Source of the DNA: Phallusia mammillata
Taxonomy: Eukaryota
Assembly: GCA_965637545.1 (NCBI GenBank)
Contig: OZ281499.1
Location: forward strand, 434,001 to 498,000
DNA length: 64,000 bases
Reading direction: 5' to 3'
In this document: one piece after another, positions 6,001 to 21,000 of the stretch
Layout: each line of letters opens with the position of its first letter
Numbering within the stretch: position 1 is the first letter of the stretch
Program-made: the position numbers

Positions 6001-9000
6001 AATGAAATTTGCGATGTTATGCACAAAAAAAAGTTGAGAGTAAAACACGTAAAAGAGAAATGCAACAAAGAAAAACAAAAATAGCAAAACATGGTTCATG
6101 GTAGGTTCCTAAACTTTAAACCGTGTTTTTATAATCACAAATATTCCATTAACCACGACGAACCTGTAGCTTGGCTTCCTCCATCCGCTTCCAACAAAAC
6201 GTGCTTTTAACGTCGCAAATCAAATCAGTTTGCCTTTTATATCAACTTCAGCGCCCCTGCAAGGCAGCTTTGGAATCCCGATCTTTCTGCCTGTGGAGTT
6301 TTCGGGCAACGATTACTTAATCACTTTACTGCGCGTTTTTGCCGAATAATCGCCCCCTCAGGGACACAACAACTCTTGGTTTACAAACAGTGGAAAGAAG
6401 TGAATCAAACCTTAACTTGTGTCAGGTGATGTCACATAAACATAATTAGGACGGACTTGATTCGTGTGATGCACATCAAATCTGTTTTAGCAATTGTCGT
6501 TGTTTATAGCTCAGTAAAACGTATTTACTACAACAGTTCTTCCCAACCTTTACAAGCTCGAGGCCATTAAAGAACTAAGAAATGAAAGTCTTGTATACTT
6601 TGTTTGTAGCAACTTTAATAAAACATGTTTTTAGTATAATTTCTCTGCGTTTTTGTTACTTTCAACTATTTTCTGGTTTGTTTATCTTTTGTTTGTTTCA
6701 TTACCTTCATGCACTTTGTTTCTACTTTAAGTTGAAGTATTTTACCCTTGGCACTTTGTGTTCACGTTCGCGCACCACACTTTGTTTCCGTTACTTCCCC
6801 TGTCGTTACCCACTGCAAGCATTACAGCTACAATTTCTTATTACCAACCAAAAGATGGTGTTAGGATCAAACTAATTAATCACGTTGCCTTTCGTCATCG
6901 ATCACATCGCCTTTGGGGGACCGCGGTCCGCGATGGTCACGTGCTAATCTATCCCACGTGATTTCACTTCATACAAACAGTCAGACAACTTTTTAAGGGC
7001 ATTTTTGTAACATTAAACGCTTTGCTTGTTACGTTTGCGTAGAGTTCCAATCCAAAAGTTCCCAAAACAAAAACCAAGCCAACATTTCGGTCAATCACTT
7101 GAATTCATTTGACCAAACGGTCACAACTTTCCTCAGATTCTGATAAACATCGGTGTTTTAGTGTCACAACTGTTTGTACATACCTTGTCATTTTGTTGTC
7201 GGTTTTTATGCAGGTTGTGTGCAACCAATCAATTGTGAATAGAAAGTGAAATTACGGCTCAAACTTGGTAAAGTTTAAACTTCTAGACTGGTTTCAAAAA
7301 AGCCCAAATAGTCTGCCTCGACGTAGAGCGCTAAACTAGCATTTTTATTTTAATATTTTTTGAGTTTACTGCGCCAAACTTTCCGAGGTGTGCTTTACCG
7401 CATTGTATGATTGTTTCAAAACAAGGTTATTGTGAAAATTAAACAACGCGTTTAAACACCTGCCTCCAATCCGGGATTTGGTAAATGAACAGCAACGGTA
7501 AATGCCACAACGATAAATGCCAGTTCCCAGCAGTCACATAACTTAGTAACAAAATTTTGCAAAAAAAAACCATGTATTTGACCCCAAGTTTTACACAAAA
7601 TAGCAAAAATGATCAAAGAACCACCTAATTGCGAAATATTCGCAAGCAACTGAAACAGAAAATCATAATAAATATGTACAAGCCGCACAAGGTATGGTTT
7701 GTGCGGTTTAGCCGCTTGTCAATCATGTGTGTCGCTTGTCGTTTAATTGTCAGAGGGCGGCTTCAGCCACAACTGCCACGTTAACTCGTCGGTTGTCATG
7801 TGGCTGTTGACGCTGTCGAACGTCATGTAAACGCTTCCGAACTCGATCGTAGAGCATTTTCGGGGCGTTGGAGTAGATGAGAGGGTTGAGAGAGCTGTTG
7901 ATGGGAAGCAGGATTATTGCTGACACTGCGTAAATCACTGGAGGTACAGTTGCTCCACCGAAGTTCAGGAAAGCCATGATTGAGATAGGCACCCAGCAGA
8001 AGAAATCAGTAAAGACCAGCCGGATGATTTTCTTTTGCATTTCTGCAACAAACACCAGAAGTTAGGAGCAAATTTAAGTTGCGCTTATCAGATTTACCTT
8101 GGTTCTGCTTTTCAGCTCTCGCATTTCGGGCCGTCTCATTCACTTGCCTGCCACTGGCAGTCGACCTCTTGTAAATCCAAACGTATGCCACAGCAACAAA
8201 CATAAAAGCCACAAGGTTAAGAGTGATGATGGCAAGTGAAAATGGCCAAGCCTTGTCGGTCGGTGTCACGTAAAGTTTACTGATGCAAACACTGTTGGTG
8301 CTGTAGTACCTGAGAAAAACATTCAGTTACAGCAACAACTATTATAATCTCATTTGCTTGCAACTACATACCCCAAATATCCTGTAATGTCAAACAGTTC
8401 AGTGTAGTGATAATCTTCAAGAATATCCACAAAATCCGCCCATGAATAAACATTTTGTACCCTTAGAAGTGCGCCATCGAGTGTCTGGGAATCGTTGATG
8501 GTAAAATTGTGTCGAAACTTTACAAACCGTTTCATGAAAGTGTCCATGCCTGCACGAAAGCACACGATGGATAAAACGGTTAAATATACACATGTGTTAC
8601 AATTGCTCACTTGAAAAGTCAACGACATGACTTTTAAAGAACGGATTTTCTTTCATCCACGCTTTGGTTTCAAACAAATGTTGAAATTGAGACGTGAGAG
8701 GAATAAAAGCCAGTGTGAAGGAAATTGTCCAAGATAAGATGATGGTAAGGATAATAATCTTCAGTTTGGGGAAATATGGCGCATTAAACGGCTGCAAAAC
8801 ATTAGTGGCTTGCTGCAAACACCAGAGCACACATACATTAAAAAATACTCACGTTTTTTACAGCGTAAAGTCGAAATGCTGTCAGCAGGACCATTGTAAT
8901 TACTGATGTTTCGCTAGAAAGCAAAACCAAAATGCCCATTGAATTGCAGGCCCGACTTGACCTCCAAACAAGGTCGTTGGCACAGTAGTTTCCAGAATAT

Positions 9001-18000: not shown

Positions 18001-21000
18001 AGGATCGCGTTTTTAAATCGTCAAGCTGTTAAAGCAGTTCAACAGAAGGTTTTTAGAAACTCTTGTTAAAAAAATTACTTTGTTGCCACGATTGTTTATT
18101 CCCCCAAAAAAGTAAACCTACCGACGATAATCTTGAAAACTTTTGTCACTTATTTCGGGGACTTTCCCAGTACAATTGCATTCGTCGCTCATATCAGGAC
18201 AATCAATGACGTCATTACACACACTTGACCTTGAAATGATCATGGAGTCGTTTCTGCACTGGAAGCACAATTGATTGTTGAACGAGGCTTTGGAGGAACG
18301 ACGGGTGTCCCTGAAAACGAAATAAAGGTCATTACTAAACTTATCACATCACCACAGATTGACCAAAAAACGCGTAAAATGATTTTTTACATGTTGCATT
18401 GTAAAAACGTTGCACGCCAAAAATCTAATAATTGCAAGTGTTGTTTCCTTTTTAGGCATAACGGAAGAGTGTACGCTTGCATTAGCTTTACCAAAACTTT
18501 TGTGTCGCTTCGTTATCACTTTCTTTCACATTATAACCTGGCAGTCCATATATTGTATTTAATTTACCAGTTCAGTTTATCGTAAGTTGTTTTGTGTGCT
18601 TATTTGCCCAAAACGTGTTTATCTTAATTTCACGATGTGTCTTTAACGTTTCTCACGTTAGTCCTTCTTCACATCTTTTCGTTACGTTCATTACCTTGAG
18701 TGTTTAATTGCTTTCTAAAACATTGTTTTCCACCTTAAGTGAATTTATTCCCCGGCATACTTTGCGCTCAATACAGCACCTTCACATCCCCTGTCGTTGC
18801 CTTACGCAGCATTTCAGCTACAACTTCTAATGTAACCAACTAAAGTAAGCCAGGCGATGATAATTGACCAGTGGGTTTCGACCACGTGACTCGTTAGTTT
18901 CCTATTAGTTTTGTCGCGAGTCTTTTTTGTTTGTTTTCAAGTCCTTTTGCGGGCCACGTGCTGTTAGGAGAAGTTCTTCCCCGGCTGTTAACTGTCTTAA
19001 AATTTGTGCAGTGACTTTGCCAAAATCTTACAGTTTTATTCCGTGTTTTTACACAAGGAAAGCAGTGCTCGAACGCGTCTTAACTAGGATTATTCATGGC
19101 TAGCCGTGAGTGCATTTTACGAAGGCTTTTGGCAACCAGCTGATGTATAAAGAACAACCGACCTAAAAACATATACATACCTCACATCGCCATTTTCGGG
19201 CGTGTAGCATAAGTCAGAGCCATTATCGCAATCTAGTACGCGGTCCCACAAGAACATTTGCGGGAGTAAGCACGTCCGGTTGTTCTTGACACATTTGAAG
19301 CCGTATCCGTTACTCCAATGTTGAAAGGCAGGACAGTCATTACAGAGATCGCCATCACACACAGTTGAACGCTTCCAACAAGTCGAATCCGGACACCGAA
19401 AGTGGGAGGGGCAAACGTCACAAGGTGTTTTATTCCGACACGAGATGTCACCCTTGCAATATTCGTGCCTCCGTAGCGCACAAACTTTACGTATTGGCGT
19501 ATAGTCGTGTATGTTGTCGCAGCTGTGAAAGTGGAATCATTATATTTTTACTATTATAATCACAGATCAAAGTGTAATAAACAACCAACATTATGGAATT
19601 CGAATGCGCGTGTTGTTGCTGGCGTTTACCCAGCACCCATCAGGGTATTTCCCATGGAAACGACCTAAAGTGGAGTATCTTTATACGGGAAATGTTTCAT
19701 CAACAAAGTAGTAAACGACAAATCAACACAACGCGTTAAATAGATAAGACTGGAGTGAAGAAAAATGTTGTTGCGATAAAAAATGTTCCTGGCGTTTTTA
19801 TAAAATTTTATTTAGTATTTATTTCTGCACTGTCAAGCACTTGAAGTGGCAAATAGAGTAAATAATCACATAAACGTCATTTGATAACCGACAAAGTTCA
19901 CCTGATATAGCTGGATGATAGGTTAGCAGGGTAGGTGGGAAATGTGACCCGTTTCTCGTCGCTTCCGTCTCCGCAGTCAGGATAATTATCGCAAAAGTAA
20001 CTTGAGTAAACTCTTCTCCCACCATCGCAAGTAAAATCTGCATTCAACAATCACAAACATATAATTGTTGGTCGTTTGATATTTGCGTCAAAGTGACAGT
20101 TGACGAATCCGCTACAACTGGACTATTTAAAAGCACAGCAGAAATATAAACATTACCCTTTAAAATTTAAAAGTTTAATTAAAGTTTTAATCATATAACT
20201 TAATGTACTGTCACTAAATAAACGTAGTATTACAAAAAGCGGTAGTTTGCTGTTTAATAATCAAGCATTTAAATTTACTCCCTGCTTGGCATGGAGCCGG
20301 TGCGATGAACCAAATCAAGGTTGCAGCGAAAATCATTACGATGAGATCTCTGAAAACACAACAGCGGCGTTGTTACATGAGTGACAAACTTGAACCTGCG
20401 TCTTCCCTGAGCGTGTTCTCATAATATACTTTACATGTCAGATAATTTGCTTACCTTTTCACGAAGTGGTGCATCATTCTTCCTGAATCTCTTACGCTAA
20501 GTTTTTTCAATAAACAATCAAAATTTTGCAAGTTTTTATATTGTGTATTATTTGAACAAAGTAAAAAAATTAACCGCAGGCTGCTTACTAAACCCGATAT
20601 ACTTAATTTCTATACCTCTGCGGTCAGAATGGTTTCCAAACGTATTTTCCGCTTTCAGCAAACCAGGCAGATGATTGTCACTTCCCAAGCCCCGCACGTC
20701 AGCAAGACTTCCTGTTACGGAAAATAAAATTGTTTTTATTATTTGTTCCGCTGTTTTCAGTCGCGAAATTACACAAATTAGTTTATGTGCACAAAATATT
20801 TACGCAAAAATGTCTCGAACTGACATTTATCACAATATAAAATTACCATGAATTCCGATAATGATGATGTTAATTGACGTTTCCTCAATTATTGCATAGG
20901 AAAAATTCCGATTTCATTATGGGTCGTTTAATTTAAACGCATGTGTTTACAATGGAACATTGATATAAAAATGCTCGTACGATGTTGTACGATGACCATG

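What the first reader, a model, noticed from the sequence alone, without database searches (positions are those of the whole stretch)
7750..20477. Intact LRR-less LDLa-GPCR with a very long second extracellular loop
Seen: a signal peptide and ~600 aa of Cys-rich/LDLa modules join directly to a relaxin-receptor-like 7TM, with no leucine-rich repeats. About 100 aa spanning three exons separate TM4 (SFTLAFIP) from YYSTNSVC. Known: RXFP1/2 and GRL101 have LRRs between LDLa and 7TM, while LRR-less LDLa-GPCRs were noted as an orphan group in Ciona. Inference: the ligand is recognised by LDLa modules and the enlarged ECL2, in a functionally uncharacterised receptor class.
Basis: partly seen in the sequence, partly recalled or inferred. 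Interest (0 to 1): 0.65.

Follow-up and report, generated by a model that had tools for sequence, protein, structure and literature searches.

The report
Sea-squirt LDLa receptor lacking leucine-rich repeats
This is an intact sea-squirt gene for an orphan cell-surface receptor of an already described family, and its unusually long outer loop is predicted to be a small folded domain shared by the whole family.

Summary
On the minus strand, 20336-7750, a 15-exon GT-AG model with consistent phases encodes 1057 codons. It comprises a signal peptide, about 630 aa of LDLa and Cys-rich modules, and an LGR/relaxin-receptor-type 7TM. No LRR was found. The last LDLa, a 22-aa linker and TM1 share one exon. 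TM4 and YYSTNSVC are 89 aa apart, across three exons.

It is not a new class. It belongs to the ascidian LDLRR-GPCR family described in Ciona in 2008 (PMC2396169) and still orphan. The nearest relatives are Phallusia, Clavelina, Ciona and Styela proteins.

What I did not find in print:
- The long ECL2 is family-wide: 75-95 aa against 13-26 aa in LRR-bearing relatives.
- AlphaFold2 predicts it, at pLDDT above 90, as a small alpha/beta domain in two distant homologues.
- It goes with loss of the acidic DRY residue.
- A large ctenophore LDLa-7TM family shares these traits, with profile-profile similarity in the loop.

Proposed mechanism, inferred only: the ECL2 domain takes over the LRR/hinge role in controlling the ECL2 tethered agonist known from RXFP1.

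I assembled, searched or folded no joined spliced protein.

The parts
20279..20336 (-). Exon 1: start codon and signal peptide (MIFAATLIWFIAPAPCQAG), phase out 1
   Evidence: ATG, GT donor. No other in-frame ATG lies upstream within the open frame. Homologues also begin with a signal-like N-terminus directly before the first LDLa. No predictor was run.
19902..20037 (-). Exon 2: first LDLa module (DGSDE cluster)
   Evidence: Pfam Ldl_recept_a E=1e-8, 35.7 bits, above the cut-off. Splice sites and phase.
19181..19522 (-). Exon 3: Cys-rich module A1 (15 Cys; two degenerate LDLa-like units by eye)
   Evidence: No Pfam family. 43-53% identical to the same module of ascidian homologues. Collinear with them.
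18122..18310 (-). Exon 4: LDLa-like module A2 (DMSDE)
   Evidence: Pfam Ldl_recept_a 9.2e-5, 23.0 bits, just under the cut-off. 47-60% identical to homologues.
11878..12264 (-). Exon 5: Cys-rich module B1, an internal duplicate of exon 3
   Evidence: DNA similarity to exon 3 only in the exon core (81% over 83 nt).
11634..11810 (-). Exon 6: LDLa-like module B2, an internal duplicate of exon 4
   Evidence: Pfam 1.1e-3, below the cut-off. 87% over 92 nt to exon 4, with no similarity in the flanking introns.
11190..11268 (-). Exon 7: short exon, first half of a degenerate LDLa-like unit
   Evidence: Rests only on splice sites and phase. No BLASTP hit and no Pfam family. This is the weakest exon of the model.
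9699..10046 (-). Exon 8: LDLa modules (two DGSDE clusters)
   Evidence: Pfam Ldl_recept_a 2.4e-13, two stretches. Collinear with homologues.
9472..9603 (-). Exon 9: end of one LDLa module (DDESDE) and start of the last
   Evidence: 61-70% identical to homologues over 44-45 aa. Pfam 0.024, weak.
9244..9408 (-). Exon 10: end of the last LDLa (DWSDEC), 22-aa linker with the conserved FSSRYELIANP motif, and TM1
   Evidence: 62-70% identical to homologues. Because one exon holds all three elements, there is no room for LRR exons here. The pre-TM1/TM1 part also matches LRR-bearing relatives.
8853..9149 (-). Exon 11: ICL1, TM2, ECL1, TM3 with FRL in place of D/E-R-Y
   Evidence: E=6e-32, 70% identity to the Phallusia mammillata fragment. 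FRL.
8611..8791 (-). Exon 12: ICL2, TM4 and the first 29 aa of the ECL2 domain (NPFF motif)
   Evidence: Family ECL2 profile against the exon 12 tail: 21.5 bits. An alternative in-frame acceptor at 8812 is not supported by the homologue alignment.
8372..8549 (-). Exon 13: 58 codons, the helical core of the ECL2 domain (two N-x-S/T sequons, no Cys)
   Evidence: Only significant hit of the subfamily ECL2 profile among 1252 frames (E=5e-8). Required for the reading frame. The broad profile and BLASTP were negative.
8098..8309 (-). Exon 14: YYSTNSVC-ISKL hairpin of ECL2, TM5, ICL3
   Evidence: Ser occupies the position where 66 of 71 long-ECL2 sequences have Pro.
7750..8042 (-). Exon 15: TM6 (CWVP), TM7 (NPLIY), C-tail, stop codon at 7752-7750
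   Evidence: 61-75% identical to homologues. Pfam 7tm_1 0.0015, below the cut-off.

Best explanation
The locus is an intact, probably functional gene of an ascidian. It encodes a member of the LDLRR-GPCR family: LGR/relaxin-receptor-type rhodopsin-class receptors whose ectodomain is an array of LDLa and LDLa-like Cys-rich modules with no leucine-rich repeats.

Shown here: the domain order, the absence of LRRs, and family membership. The 89-96 aa between TM4 and the ECL2 cysteine are a family-wide, conserved insert.

Predicted, not shown: AlphaFold2 models of two distant homologues fold the insert into a compact alpha/beta mini-domain with pLDDT above 90.

Proposed mechanism (inferred):
1. The LDLa array binds a protein or lipoprotein ligand in the Ca2+-dependent, acidic-cluster manner of the LDL-receptor family.
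2. This shifts the membrane-proximal LDLa and the conserved pre-TM1 linker against the ECL2 domain.
3. The ECL2 domain stands in for the LRR/hinge of RXFP1 as the element that restrains or releases the conserved ECL2 hairpin (YYSxxSVC-hydrophobic-Pro-basic-hydrophobic).
4. That hairpin acts as the tethered agonist in the orthosteric pocket.
5. Loss of the acidic residue of the DRY motif fits a receptor tuned for easy activation.

My odds: family identity and intactness about 0.9; this particular mechanism about 0.35.
For: Gene model: 15 exons, all GT-AG, phases consistent, 1057 codons.

Family.
- Exon 11 matches ascidian LDLa+7tm_1 proteins at 6e-32 to 9e-20.
- All exons are collinear with six full-length homologues.
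- In a search with the 7TM region of the Clavelina homologue, the first 70 of 120 listed rows (820 down to 151 bits) carry LDLa and/or 7tm_1 Pfams and no LRR. All 31 named rows are Clavelina, Phallusia, Ciona or Styela. Of the next 50 rows, 46 carry LRR Pfams.
- In the first tree all five window exon rows sit inside a tunicate clade (100*).

No LRR: and the exon 10 layout.

ECL2.
- TM4-Pro to Cys is 75-95 aa in 69 LRR-less family members and 13-26 aa in 61 relatives: LRR-bearing proteins plus 7TM-only fragments and two listed rows without an LRR Pfam. Alignment of 133 proteins. The window has 96 aa.
- AlphaFold2: Phallusia homologue P0023 pLDDT 82.9, pTM 0.79, ECL2 blocks 92-97, with strands and four helices. 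Clavelina P0055, from a different subfamily, pLDDT 88.3, pTM 0.81, ECL2 blocks 91-96, with the same strand-helix-helix-strand order.
- The whole model matches TSHR, RXFP1 (7tmw), LGR4, FSHR and LHCGR best.

Motifs: position 3.49 is never D/E in 71 long-ECL2 sequences, against D/E in 59 of 61 short-ECL2 ones. After the ECL2 Cys, hydrophobic-Pro is kept in 66 of 71.

Background.
- In RXFP1, ECL2 fills the orthosteric site and is held in check by the LRRs and hinge, and a 7TM-only construct signals at 70% basally (bioRxiv 10.1101/2022.01.22.477343, passages).
- Lipoprotein or large-protein ligands and haemocyte ESTs were proposed or reported for the Ciona family (PMC2396169, section 14).
Against: - There are no expression data for this locus, and no ligand, coupling or binding data for any family member.
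- The fold of the ECL2 domain is a prediction from a 68-sequence alignment. I could not inspect coordinates, contacts or PAE, so I have not seen contact between the ECL2 domain and the LDLa or linker.
- In the window the near-invariant Pro after the ECL2 Cys is Ser (C-I-S-K-L). The RXFP1 position equivalent to Leu566 is basic (K/R) across the family. The tethered-agonist motif C-hydrophobic-P-hydrophobic is therefore not met as defined.
- Exon 7 has no homology support.
- Exons 3-4 and 5-6 all have phase 2 on both sides, so they could be alternative rather than tandem. The ectodomain could then be about 170-190 aa shorter.
- The window gene lacks about 170 aa of the middle ectodomain of its closest homologues.
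- In the second tree no starred clade of at most half the rows held the window rows.
Confidence: 0.6

Rival explanations
1. The ECL2 domain is itself part of the ligand-binding site and recognises the ligand together with the LDLa modules, rather than acting as an internal regulatory substitute for the LRR/hinge.
For: - The domain is extracellular, confidently folded in the models and sits over the pocket by topology.
- Its sequence diverges strongly between subfamilies. The broad profile fails on exon 13 while the subfamily profile succeeds. That pattern would suit ligand-specific surfaces in an expanded family.
- N-glycosylation sequons lie in exon 13.
Against: - There are no binding data.
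- The insert always accompanies the absence of LRRs and a changed DRY motif. That fits a structural or regulatory replacement.
- Divergence between subfamilies could equally reflect co-evolution with each receptor's own LDLa array.
Confidence: 0.25
2. The receptor is largely ligand-independent, or its LDLa array works mainly as a scavenger or endocytic binding module. In this reading the 7TM is constitutively active through the ECL2 hairpin and the lost DRY acid. The ectodomain sets localisation, turnover or inhibition rather than transmitting an agonist signal.
For: - The RXFP1 7TM without its LRRs signals at 70% of maximum through ECL2.
- There is no D/E at 3.49 in any of 71 long-ECL2 sequences. 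From general GPCR knowledge, recalled and not tested here, changes at 3.49 often raise basal activity.
- LDLa arrays in LDLR and LRPs are cargo binders (PMC2396169, section 14).
Against: - The conserved, elaborate ECL2 domain and pre-TM1 linker motif suggest regulated rather than free-running activity.
- Large family expansions are more typical of receptors that discriminate between ligands.
Confidence: 0.15
3. The model is partly wrong, or the gene is not expressed as modelled. Either exon pairs 3-4 and 5-6 are mutually exclusive alternatives, or the locus is a recently decayed copy whose reading frame is still open.
For: - All four exons have phase 2 in and phase 2 out. Homologues carry one copy of the module.
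- The gene lacks the middle ectodomain part of its homologues.
- Ser replaces a near-invariant Pro.
- Exon 7 is unsupported.
- There is no transcript evidence.
Against: - There are 1057 codons without a stop across 15 exons, with canonical splice sites.
- CWxP, NPxxY, the TM3 and ECL2 cysteines, the invariant Arg3.50 and the SDE clusters are all kept.
- The two module copies have diverged to 81-87% in the exon cores only yet both keep their Cys pattern, as expected under selection.
Confidence: 0.1

Closest known systems
Ciona LDLRR-GPCRs (Kamesh, Aradhyam and Manoj 2008, PMC2396169)
   Same: - Tunicate origin.
- Tandem LDL-A repeats at the N-terminus, no LRRs, and a 7TM most like INSL3/relaxin receptors.
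- Ciona intestinalis proteins P0005 and P0027 fall in the same subclade as the window exons. They align collinearly and are 45-66% identical per exon.
   Different: - The window gene comes from another ascidian. Its best match is only 70% identical, to a Phallusia fragment.
- It carries an internal duplication of a two-exon Cys-rich/LDLa module and lacks about 170 aa of the middle ectodomain.
- It has Ser for the near-invariant Pro after the ECL2 Cys.
- The paper does not discuss ECL2 for this family: 'ECL2' occurs 0 times, and none of the passages shown for its three 'extracellular loop' mentions concerns this family.
RXFP1/RXFP2 (type C LGRs, vertebrate relaxin/INSL3 receptors)
   Same: - LDLa module(s) N-terminal to an LGR-type 7TM.
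- A Y-Y/G-x-x-x-x-V-C motif and a TM3-ECL2 disulfide.
- The RXFP1 structure 7tmw is among the best fold matches of the homologue model.
- A likely shared principle of an ECL2 hairpin acting in the orthosteric site.
   Different: - No LRRs here.
- Many LDLa modules instead of one.
- TM4-Pro to Cys is 96 aa, against 16 in the one vertebrate RXFP2-like sequence examined (P0127).
- FRL instead of an acidic residue before Arg3.50.
- C-I-S-K-L instead of C-hydrophobic-P-hydrophobic.
GRL101 of Lymnaea and GRL101-like receptors (multi-LDLa plus LRR LGRs of molluscs, echinoderms, cnidarians and hemichordates)
   Same: - Multiple LDLa modules before an LGR-type 7TM.
- They are the nearest non-tunicate relatives by sequence: 41-51% identity to exon 11 and 131 bits or less to the homologue 7TM.
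   Different: - They carry LRR Pfams (46 of the 50 lower rows).
- They have a short ECL2 of 13-26 aa and D at 3.49 (58 of 61).
- A 99* branch separates them from the long-ECL2 receptors.
Ctenophore LDLa-7TM receptors (Mnemiopsis leidyi, Bolinopsis microptera; unnamed in the literature I could search)
   Same: - LDLa plus 7tm_1 without LRR Pfams in all 120 listed proteins.
- TM4-Pro to Cys of 80-89 aa in 120 of 120, no acidic 3.49, and a basic residue three positions after the ECL2 Cys.
- ECL2 profile-profile score 23.8, which no column-shuffled control reached (0 of 100; maximum 15.5).
   Different: - Only about 28% identical in the 7TM.
- A tunicate ECL2 profile against the single ctenophore sequence scored no better than shuffles.
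- C-L-F-K-Y rather than C-hydrophobic-P-R/K-hydrophobic.
- The unrooted tree cannot say whether the two groups form one clade.

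Membership tests
Ascidian LDLRR-GPCR family (PMC2396169) | Rhodopsin-class 7TM most similar to INSL3/relaxin-type (LGR) receptors | tested here: met
   - The 7TM exons match LDLa-7TM ascidian proteins and, more weakly, GRL101-like and relaxin-receptor-like proteins.
- The homologue model matches TSHR, RXFP1 and LGR4 best.
Ascidian LDLRR-GPCR family (PMC2396169) | One to ten LDL-A repeats in the N-terminal ectodomain | tested here: met
   - Pfam Ldl_recept_a is above the cut-off in the exon 2 and exon 8 frames, and weaker in the exon 4, 6 and 9 frames.
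- There are seven SDE/DDE clusters.
Ascidian LDLRR-GPCR family (PMC2396169) | No leucine-rich repeats between the LDL-A modules and the 7TM | tested here: met
   - No LRR Pfam in 15 frames.
- tblastn with 12 LRR-bearing relatives found no LRR match on the gene's strand.
- The last LDLa, the linker and TM1 lie in one exon.
- RNA evidence is not available.
Ascidian LDLRR-GPCR family (PMC2396169) | Groups with the tunicate members in a 7TM tree | tested here: met
   - Each of five exon rows, placed separately, falls on the tunicate side of the 99* branch.
- They fall within an 18-row clade (100*). That clade was not starred.
- The joined protein was not used.
Long-ECL2 trait of the family (defined here) | 75-95 aa between the TM4 Pro and the ECL2 Cys, and no acidic residue at 3.49 | tested here: met
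   The window has 96 aa and FRL.
RXFP1/RXFP2 (type C LGR) | LRR domain and hinge between a single LDLa and the 7TM | tested here: not met
   No LRRs and multiple LDLa modules.
RXFP1/RXFP2 (type C LGR) | ECL2 motif C-hydrophobic-P-hydrophobic shared by all LGRs | tested here: not met
   The window reads C-I-S-K-L. The family mostly reads C-(M/I/L)-P-(R/K/N)-(F/L).
GRL101-type (multi-LDLa LGR) | Multiple LDLa modules together with LRRs | tested here: not met
   LDLa modules are present and LRRs are absent.
Class A (rhodopsin-like) GPCR | CWxP in TM6, NPxxY in TM7, TM3-ECL2 cysteine pair, D/E-R-Y at the end of TM3 | tested here: inconclusive
   CWVP, NPLIY and both cysteines are present. The Arg is kept, but the motif reads FRL, without the acidic residue.
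Class A (rhodopsin-like) GPCR | G-protein coupling and signalling | not testable with these tools
   This needs cell-based assays.

The most novel reading that the evidence does not exclude
The 'long ECL2' is an ancient, autonomously folding receptor domain. On this reading, LDLa-7TM receptors without LRRs but with this domain form an old metazoan lineage, kept and greatly expanded in ctenophores and tunicates and lost or replaced elsewhere. In that lineage the ECL2 domain, not an LRR/hinge, couples the LDLa array to the ECL2 tethered agonist. It would be a second solution to the activation problem that RXFP1 solves with LRRs, and a rare case of a folded domain inserted in an extracellular loop of a class A GPCR.
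Probability: 0.3. Interest if true: 0.7.

Novelty: new member of a known kind. Interest (0 to 1): 0.45.

Why it matters
As a locus, this is one more member of a tunicate receptor family that has been known, and orphan, since 2008.

The value lies in what the family shows once it is compared widely. Three traits go together in every sequence examined:
- absence of LRRs;
- an 75-96 aa insert, confidently predicted to fold, directly before the ECL2 hairpin;
- loss of the acidic DRY residue.

RXFP1 work has shown that ECL2 is the tethered agonist and that the LRR/hinge restrains it. These receptors are therefore a natural experiment in which that restraint has been replaced. This makes a concrete question testable with deletion and swap constructs: can an ECL2-borne domain take over the LRR/hinge role?

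The similar family in ctenophores, if truly homologous, would push this architecture back to early animals. It also gives two independent expansions in which to look for ligands. Haemocyte expression in Ciona hints at immune or haemolymph-sensing roles.

Tried and rejected
- Joined protein. All searches used single exons, and structure predictions used database homologues. The window protein itself therefore has no model.
- Complex prediction, homologue P0023 residues 346-735 against its three membrane-proximal LDLa modules 226-340: 'no answer', score 0.02. This is not evidence either way. Four earlier hand-ins met a full queue.
- Broad ECL2-insert profile (68 sequences) against all window frames: exon 13 not detected (E=3, rank 10 of 1252).
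- BLASTP of exons 1, 7 and 13 against 134 fetched proteins: no hit at 1e-3.
- Tunicate ECL2 profile against single ctenophore (P0089) and unnamed (P0095) loops: 0.8 and 1.0 bits, below the shuffle maxima of 6.1 and 7.4. Only the profile-profile comparison was positive.
- ESM Atlas with the ECL2 domain of P0023: no usable feature hit. The structure rows, with TM at most 0.56 to short phage and bacterial hypotheticals, were judged meaningless.
- Search for further exons matching the middle ectodomain of homologues: only weak cross-hits on known LDLa exons.
- Search for paralogues elsewhere in the window: none.
- Rooting the tree to decide whether ctenophore and tunicate receptors form one clade: not possible without a named outgroup.
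- Literature:
  - Searches gave nothing on function.
  - 'LDLRR-GPCR' occurs in one paper only.
  - Searches found no description of the ctenophore family.
  - The library lacks most subscription journals.
Additional files 2 and 3 of PMC2396169, with EST tissues and domain drawings, could bear on expression and on whether long loops were drawn.
- Rejected idea: the module duplication is an assembly artefact. Only the exon cores are similar (81-87%) and the introns are not.

Full report
**Scope.** I worked exon by exon. Where a whole protein was needed, for example for structure prediction, I used natural homologues returned by the database searches. The window holds no N. Its best matches are ascidian, and nothing suggested human sequence.

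**1. What is in the sequence.**
- Stop-to-stop frames on the minus strand between 20372 and 7750 carry a signal-like start, many Cys-rich and LDLa-like stretches, and seven hydrophobic helices.
- A 15-exon model with GT-AG at all 14 introns has mutually consistent phases. It adds up to 3174 nt, which is 1057 codons plus a stop.
- Pfam, run on 15 separate frames, finds Ldl_recept_a above its cut-off in the exon 2 frame (1e-8) and the exon 8 frame (2.4e-13, two stretches). It finds weaker matches in the exon 4, 6 and 9 frames.
- Pfam 7tm_1 is weak in the exon 11 and exon 15 frames. No LRR family is hit.
- Exons 3, 5 and 7 have no Pfam match. Exons 3 and 5 are Cys-rich (15 and 17 Cys) and look like degenerate LDLa units by eye.
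- Seven modules keep the SDE/DDE acidic cluster.
- The ectodomain is about 653 aa including the signal peptide.

**2. No LRRs.**
- tblastn with 12 named LRR-bearing relatives at E<=10 hit only 7TM and LDLa exons on the gene's strand.
- Exon 10 holds the end of the last LDLa (DWSDEC), 22 residues including a conserved FSSRYELIANP motif, and TM1. There is therefore no place for LRR exons at the position they occupy in RXFP1/2 or GRL101.
- RNA evidence is lacking.

**3. The long ECL2.**
- TM4 ends in exon 12 (...SFTLAFIP).
- 29 further residues of exon 12, a junction codon, the 58 codons of exon 13 and another junction codon precede YYSTNSVC in exon 14. That is 89 aa, or 96 aa from the TM4 Pro to the ECL2 Cys.
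- Exon 13 is required for the frame (phase 1 in, phase 2 out).
- Its sequence is divergent. BLASTP finds nothing, and a profile of the insert from 68 family members does not detect it (E=3, rank 10 of 1252 frames).
- A profile from the 16 closest homologues picks the exon 13 frame as the only significant frame in the window. E=5e-8, 29.4 bits, profile positions 3-56 of 56, ending exactly at the predicted donor; next best E=0.79.

**4. What it is.**
- Exon 11 alone retrieves 21 proteins from 136 candidates. The top ones are a Phallusia mammillata 'relaxin receptor 1-like' fragment (70% identity), five Clavelina lepadiformis proteins and two Ciona intestinalis proteins. All of them carry LDLa and/or 7tm_1 Pfams and no LRR. 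Then come LRR-bearing proteins at 36-51% identity.
- All exons align collinearly with six full-length homologues.
- A search with the 7TM region of the Clavelina homologue gave 565 hits at E<=1e-3, of which 120 were listed.
  - The first 70 rows (820 down to 151 bits) have LDLa and/or 7tm_1 Pfams and no LRR.
  - The 31 named rows among them are all Clavelina, Phallusia, Ciona or Styela.
  - Of the next 50 rows (131 bits or less), 46 carry LRR Pfams. These are GRL101-like and relaxin-receptor-like proteins of molluscs, hemichordates, echinoderms, cnidarians, arthropods and a fish.
- An exhaustive phmmer search with the Phallusia fragment counted 2569 representatives at E<=1e-3, 576 at 1e-10 and 8 at 1e-30. 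I did not use its unnamed rows.
- This is the family that Kamesh et al. 2008 called LDLRR-GPCRs in Ciona. They described 14 confirmed members, one to ten LDL-A repeats, no LRRs, relaxin/INSL3-receptor-like TM regions, ESTs mainly from blood and haemocytes, lipoproteins or large protein complexes proposed as ligands, and no de-orphanisation (PMC2396169; passages and section 14 read).
- The term occurs in no other paper of the library. Further searches found no functional follow-up.

**5. Trees.** I built quick IQ-TREE trees of the 7TM columns with the insert columns removed. The five window exons entered as five separate rows.
- A branch with 99% SH-aLRT separates 21 LRR-bearing, short-ECL2 receptors from all long-ECL2 rows.
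- All five window rows fall in an 18-row clade (100*) with 13 tunicate proteins. The nearest is Phallusia P0023.
- After four more ctenophore rows were added, the 99* split remained, but no starred clade of at most half the rows held the window rows.
- The trees are unrooted, and the exon rows fill only 10-30% of the columns.

**6. The ECL2 insert is a family trait that covaries with two others.**
- In an alignment of 133 proteins, the distance from the TM4 Pro to the ECL2 Cys is:
  - 75-95 aa in 69 LRR-less family members. One further member, P0084, is a broken model with 33 aa. P0004, with 77 aa, has a mis-predicted segment.
  - 13-26 aa, mostly 16-17, in 61 LRR-bearing relatives and fragments.
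- The residue before the invariant Arg3.50 is never acidic in 71 long-ECL2 sequences (F 37, L 11, Y 10, others 13). It is D or E in 59 of 61 short-ECL2 sequences.
- After the ECL2 Cys the long group reads hydrophobic-Pro-(R/K/N)-hydrophobic, with Pro in 66 of 71. The short group reads hydrophobic-(P/G/A)-L-(P/H/Q).
- The window reads FRL and C-I-S-K-L, so it has Ser where Pro is nearly invariant.

**7. Predicted structure (homologues, not the window protein).**
- AlphaFold2 with a 68-sequence family alignment gave mean pLDDT 82.9 and pTM 0.79 for Phallusia P0023 (774 aa).
  - Its ECL2 (residues 510-602) has ten-residue block means of 92-97.
  - The secondary structure there is a short helix, two strands, four helices and a final strand.
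- For Clavelina P0055, from a different subfamily with a 78-aa insert, it gave pLDDT 88.3 and pTM 0.81.
  - Its ECL2 blocks are 91-96, in the order strand, (strand), helix, helix, strand.
- The 'loop' is therefore predicted, with high confidence, to be a compact alpha/beta mini-domain. By alignment, exon 13 of the window encodes its helical core.
- Foldseek of the whole P0023 model against the PDB ranks TSHR, RXFP1 (7tmw), LGR4, FSHR and LHCGR first.
- The ESM Atlas gave no informative relative for the domain.
- I could not see coordinates or PAE, so no contact is claimed.

**8. How it may work.**
- In RXFP1 the ECL2 hairpin after the conserved Cys occupies the orthosteric pocket. Phe564 and Leu566 are essential.
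- The 7TM alone signals at 70% basally. The LRRs and hinge keep ECL2 in check until relaxin binds, and the LDLa is required (bioRxiv 10.1101/2022.01.22.477343, passages).
- The ascidian family keeps the Y-Y-S-x-x-S-V-C hairpin start and a conserved pre-TM1 linker. It lacks the LRR/hinge and has a folded domain grafted immediately before the hairpin.
- My best reading is that this domain has taken over the restraining and transmitting role of the LRR/hinge. The LDLa array would then be the ligand-binding part, using Ca2+-dependent acidic clusters as in LDLR and LRPs.
- The lost acidic 3.49 would fit a receptor that is easily activated.
- All of this is inference. The motif differences (basic residue at Cys+3; Ser for Pro in the window) show that the RXFP1 mechanism cannot simply be transferred.

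**9. Peculiarities of this gene.**
- Exons 5-6 duplicate exons 3-4. Homologues have one copy.
- DNA similarity is confined to the exon cores: 81% over 83 nt and 87% over 92 nt. The duplication is therefore old and not an assembly artefact.
- All four exons are phase 2/2, so tandem use and mutually exclusive use are both possible.
- About 170 aa of the middle ectodomain of the closest homologues have no counterpart in the window.

**10. Beyond tunicates.**
- One listed non-tunicate hit without LRRs, Mnemiopsis leidyi P0089 (SRCR+LDLa+7TM), has an 80-aa ECL2.
- A search with its 7TM region returned 526 hits, of which 120 were listed.
  - All score at least 397 bits and none has an LRR Pfam.
  - 119 carry LDLa plus 7tm_1, and one carries 7tm_1 only.
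  - The five named ones are Mnemiopsis (4) and Bolinopsis (1).
- All 120 have 80-89 aa between the TM4 Pro and the Cys and no acidic 3.49. 114 read C-L-F-K-Y.
- A tunicate ECL2 profile does not score the single ctenophore loop above shuffles.
- The two ECL2 profiles do align over 61 columns with hhalign: score 23.8, probability 65%, E=6.2e-5. The controls were 100 column-shuffles (mean 9.2, SD 2.0, maximum 15.5) and a reversed alignment (7.5).
- The unrooted tree cannot decide whether the two groups form a clade.
- I found no paper describing this ctenophore family. The library lacks most subscription journals.

**11. Verdict.**
- The architecture is that of a family known since 2008, so the locus is a new member of a known kind.
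- The interesting residue is the family-wide, predicted-folded ECL2 domain, its strict association with LRR loss and a changed DRY motif, and its possible counterpart in ctenophores.

Noticed in passing
window 11634-12264 versus 18122-19522 (minus strand): A two-exon Cys-rich/LDLa module is present twice in the gene (exons 3-4 and 5-6), separated by a 5.8-kb intron. All four exons are phase 2/2, so the pairs could be used in tandem or as mutually exclusive alternatives. Only the exon cores are similar at DNA level (81-87%).
   Followed up: partly
window 10075-11021: A 122-bp tandem repeat, 7.8 copies at 93% match, fills most of the intron between exons 7 and 8.
   Followed up: no
window 12376-12656 and 17716-17771: Related short tandem arrays (units built on AAAATGTGCAGGTC and its complement) lie near both ends of the large intron between exons 4 and 5. 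They are the flanks of the duplicated module.
   Followed up: no
window 8280-8290 (exon 14): The residue two positions after the ECL2 cysteine is Ser in the window. It is Pro in 66 of 71 long-ECL2 receptors. This is a departure at the heart of the putative tethered-agonist hairpin.
   Followed up: partly
window 24298-26007 (+): A single uninterrupted 570-aa frame has all four phosphoglucomutase-1 domains (Pfam 8.7e-49 to 8.2e-18). It appears to be an intronless PGM1 gene next to the receptor.
   Followed up: partly
window 33757-40002 (-): One uninterrupted 2082-aa frame lies in a stretch with strongly negative AT skew. It shows internal repeats on the opposite-strand frames and only a weak Ig_Pom152 Pfam match (1e-14 for the whole protein, with no single stretch passing). 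Its nature is unknown.
   Followed up: no
window 46601-47364 (-): Two frames match the Arf small-GTPase family (4e-10 and 1.6e-14). They are exons of an Arf/Arl-like gene.
   Followed up: no
proteins P0089, P0268-P0386 (not in the window): Ctenophores (Mnemiopsis, Bolinopsis) hold a large family of LDLa-7TM receptors without LRRs. They have 80-89-aa ECL2 inserts and no acidic DRY residue, and their ECL2 profile aligns with the tunicate one above all shuffled controls. I found no description of this family in the searchable literature.
   Followed up: partly
protein P0095 (unnamed JGI record, not in the window): A 612-aa protein carries only a 7tm_1 Pfam. It has an 89-aa ECL2, FRL at 3.49-3.51 and C-T-T-K-Y. 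It groups with tunicate receptors on a long branch. Its origin is not known and was not traced.
   Followed up: no
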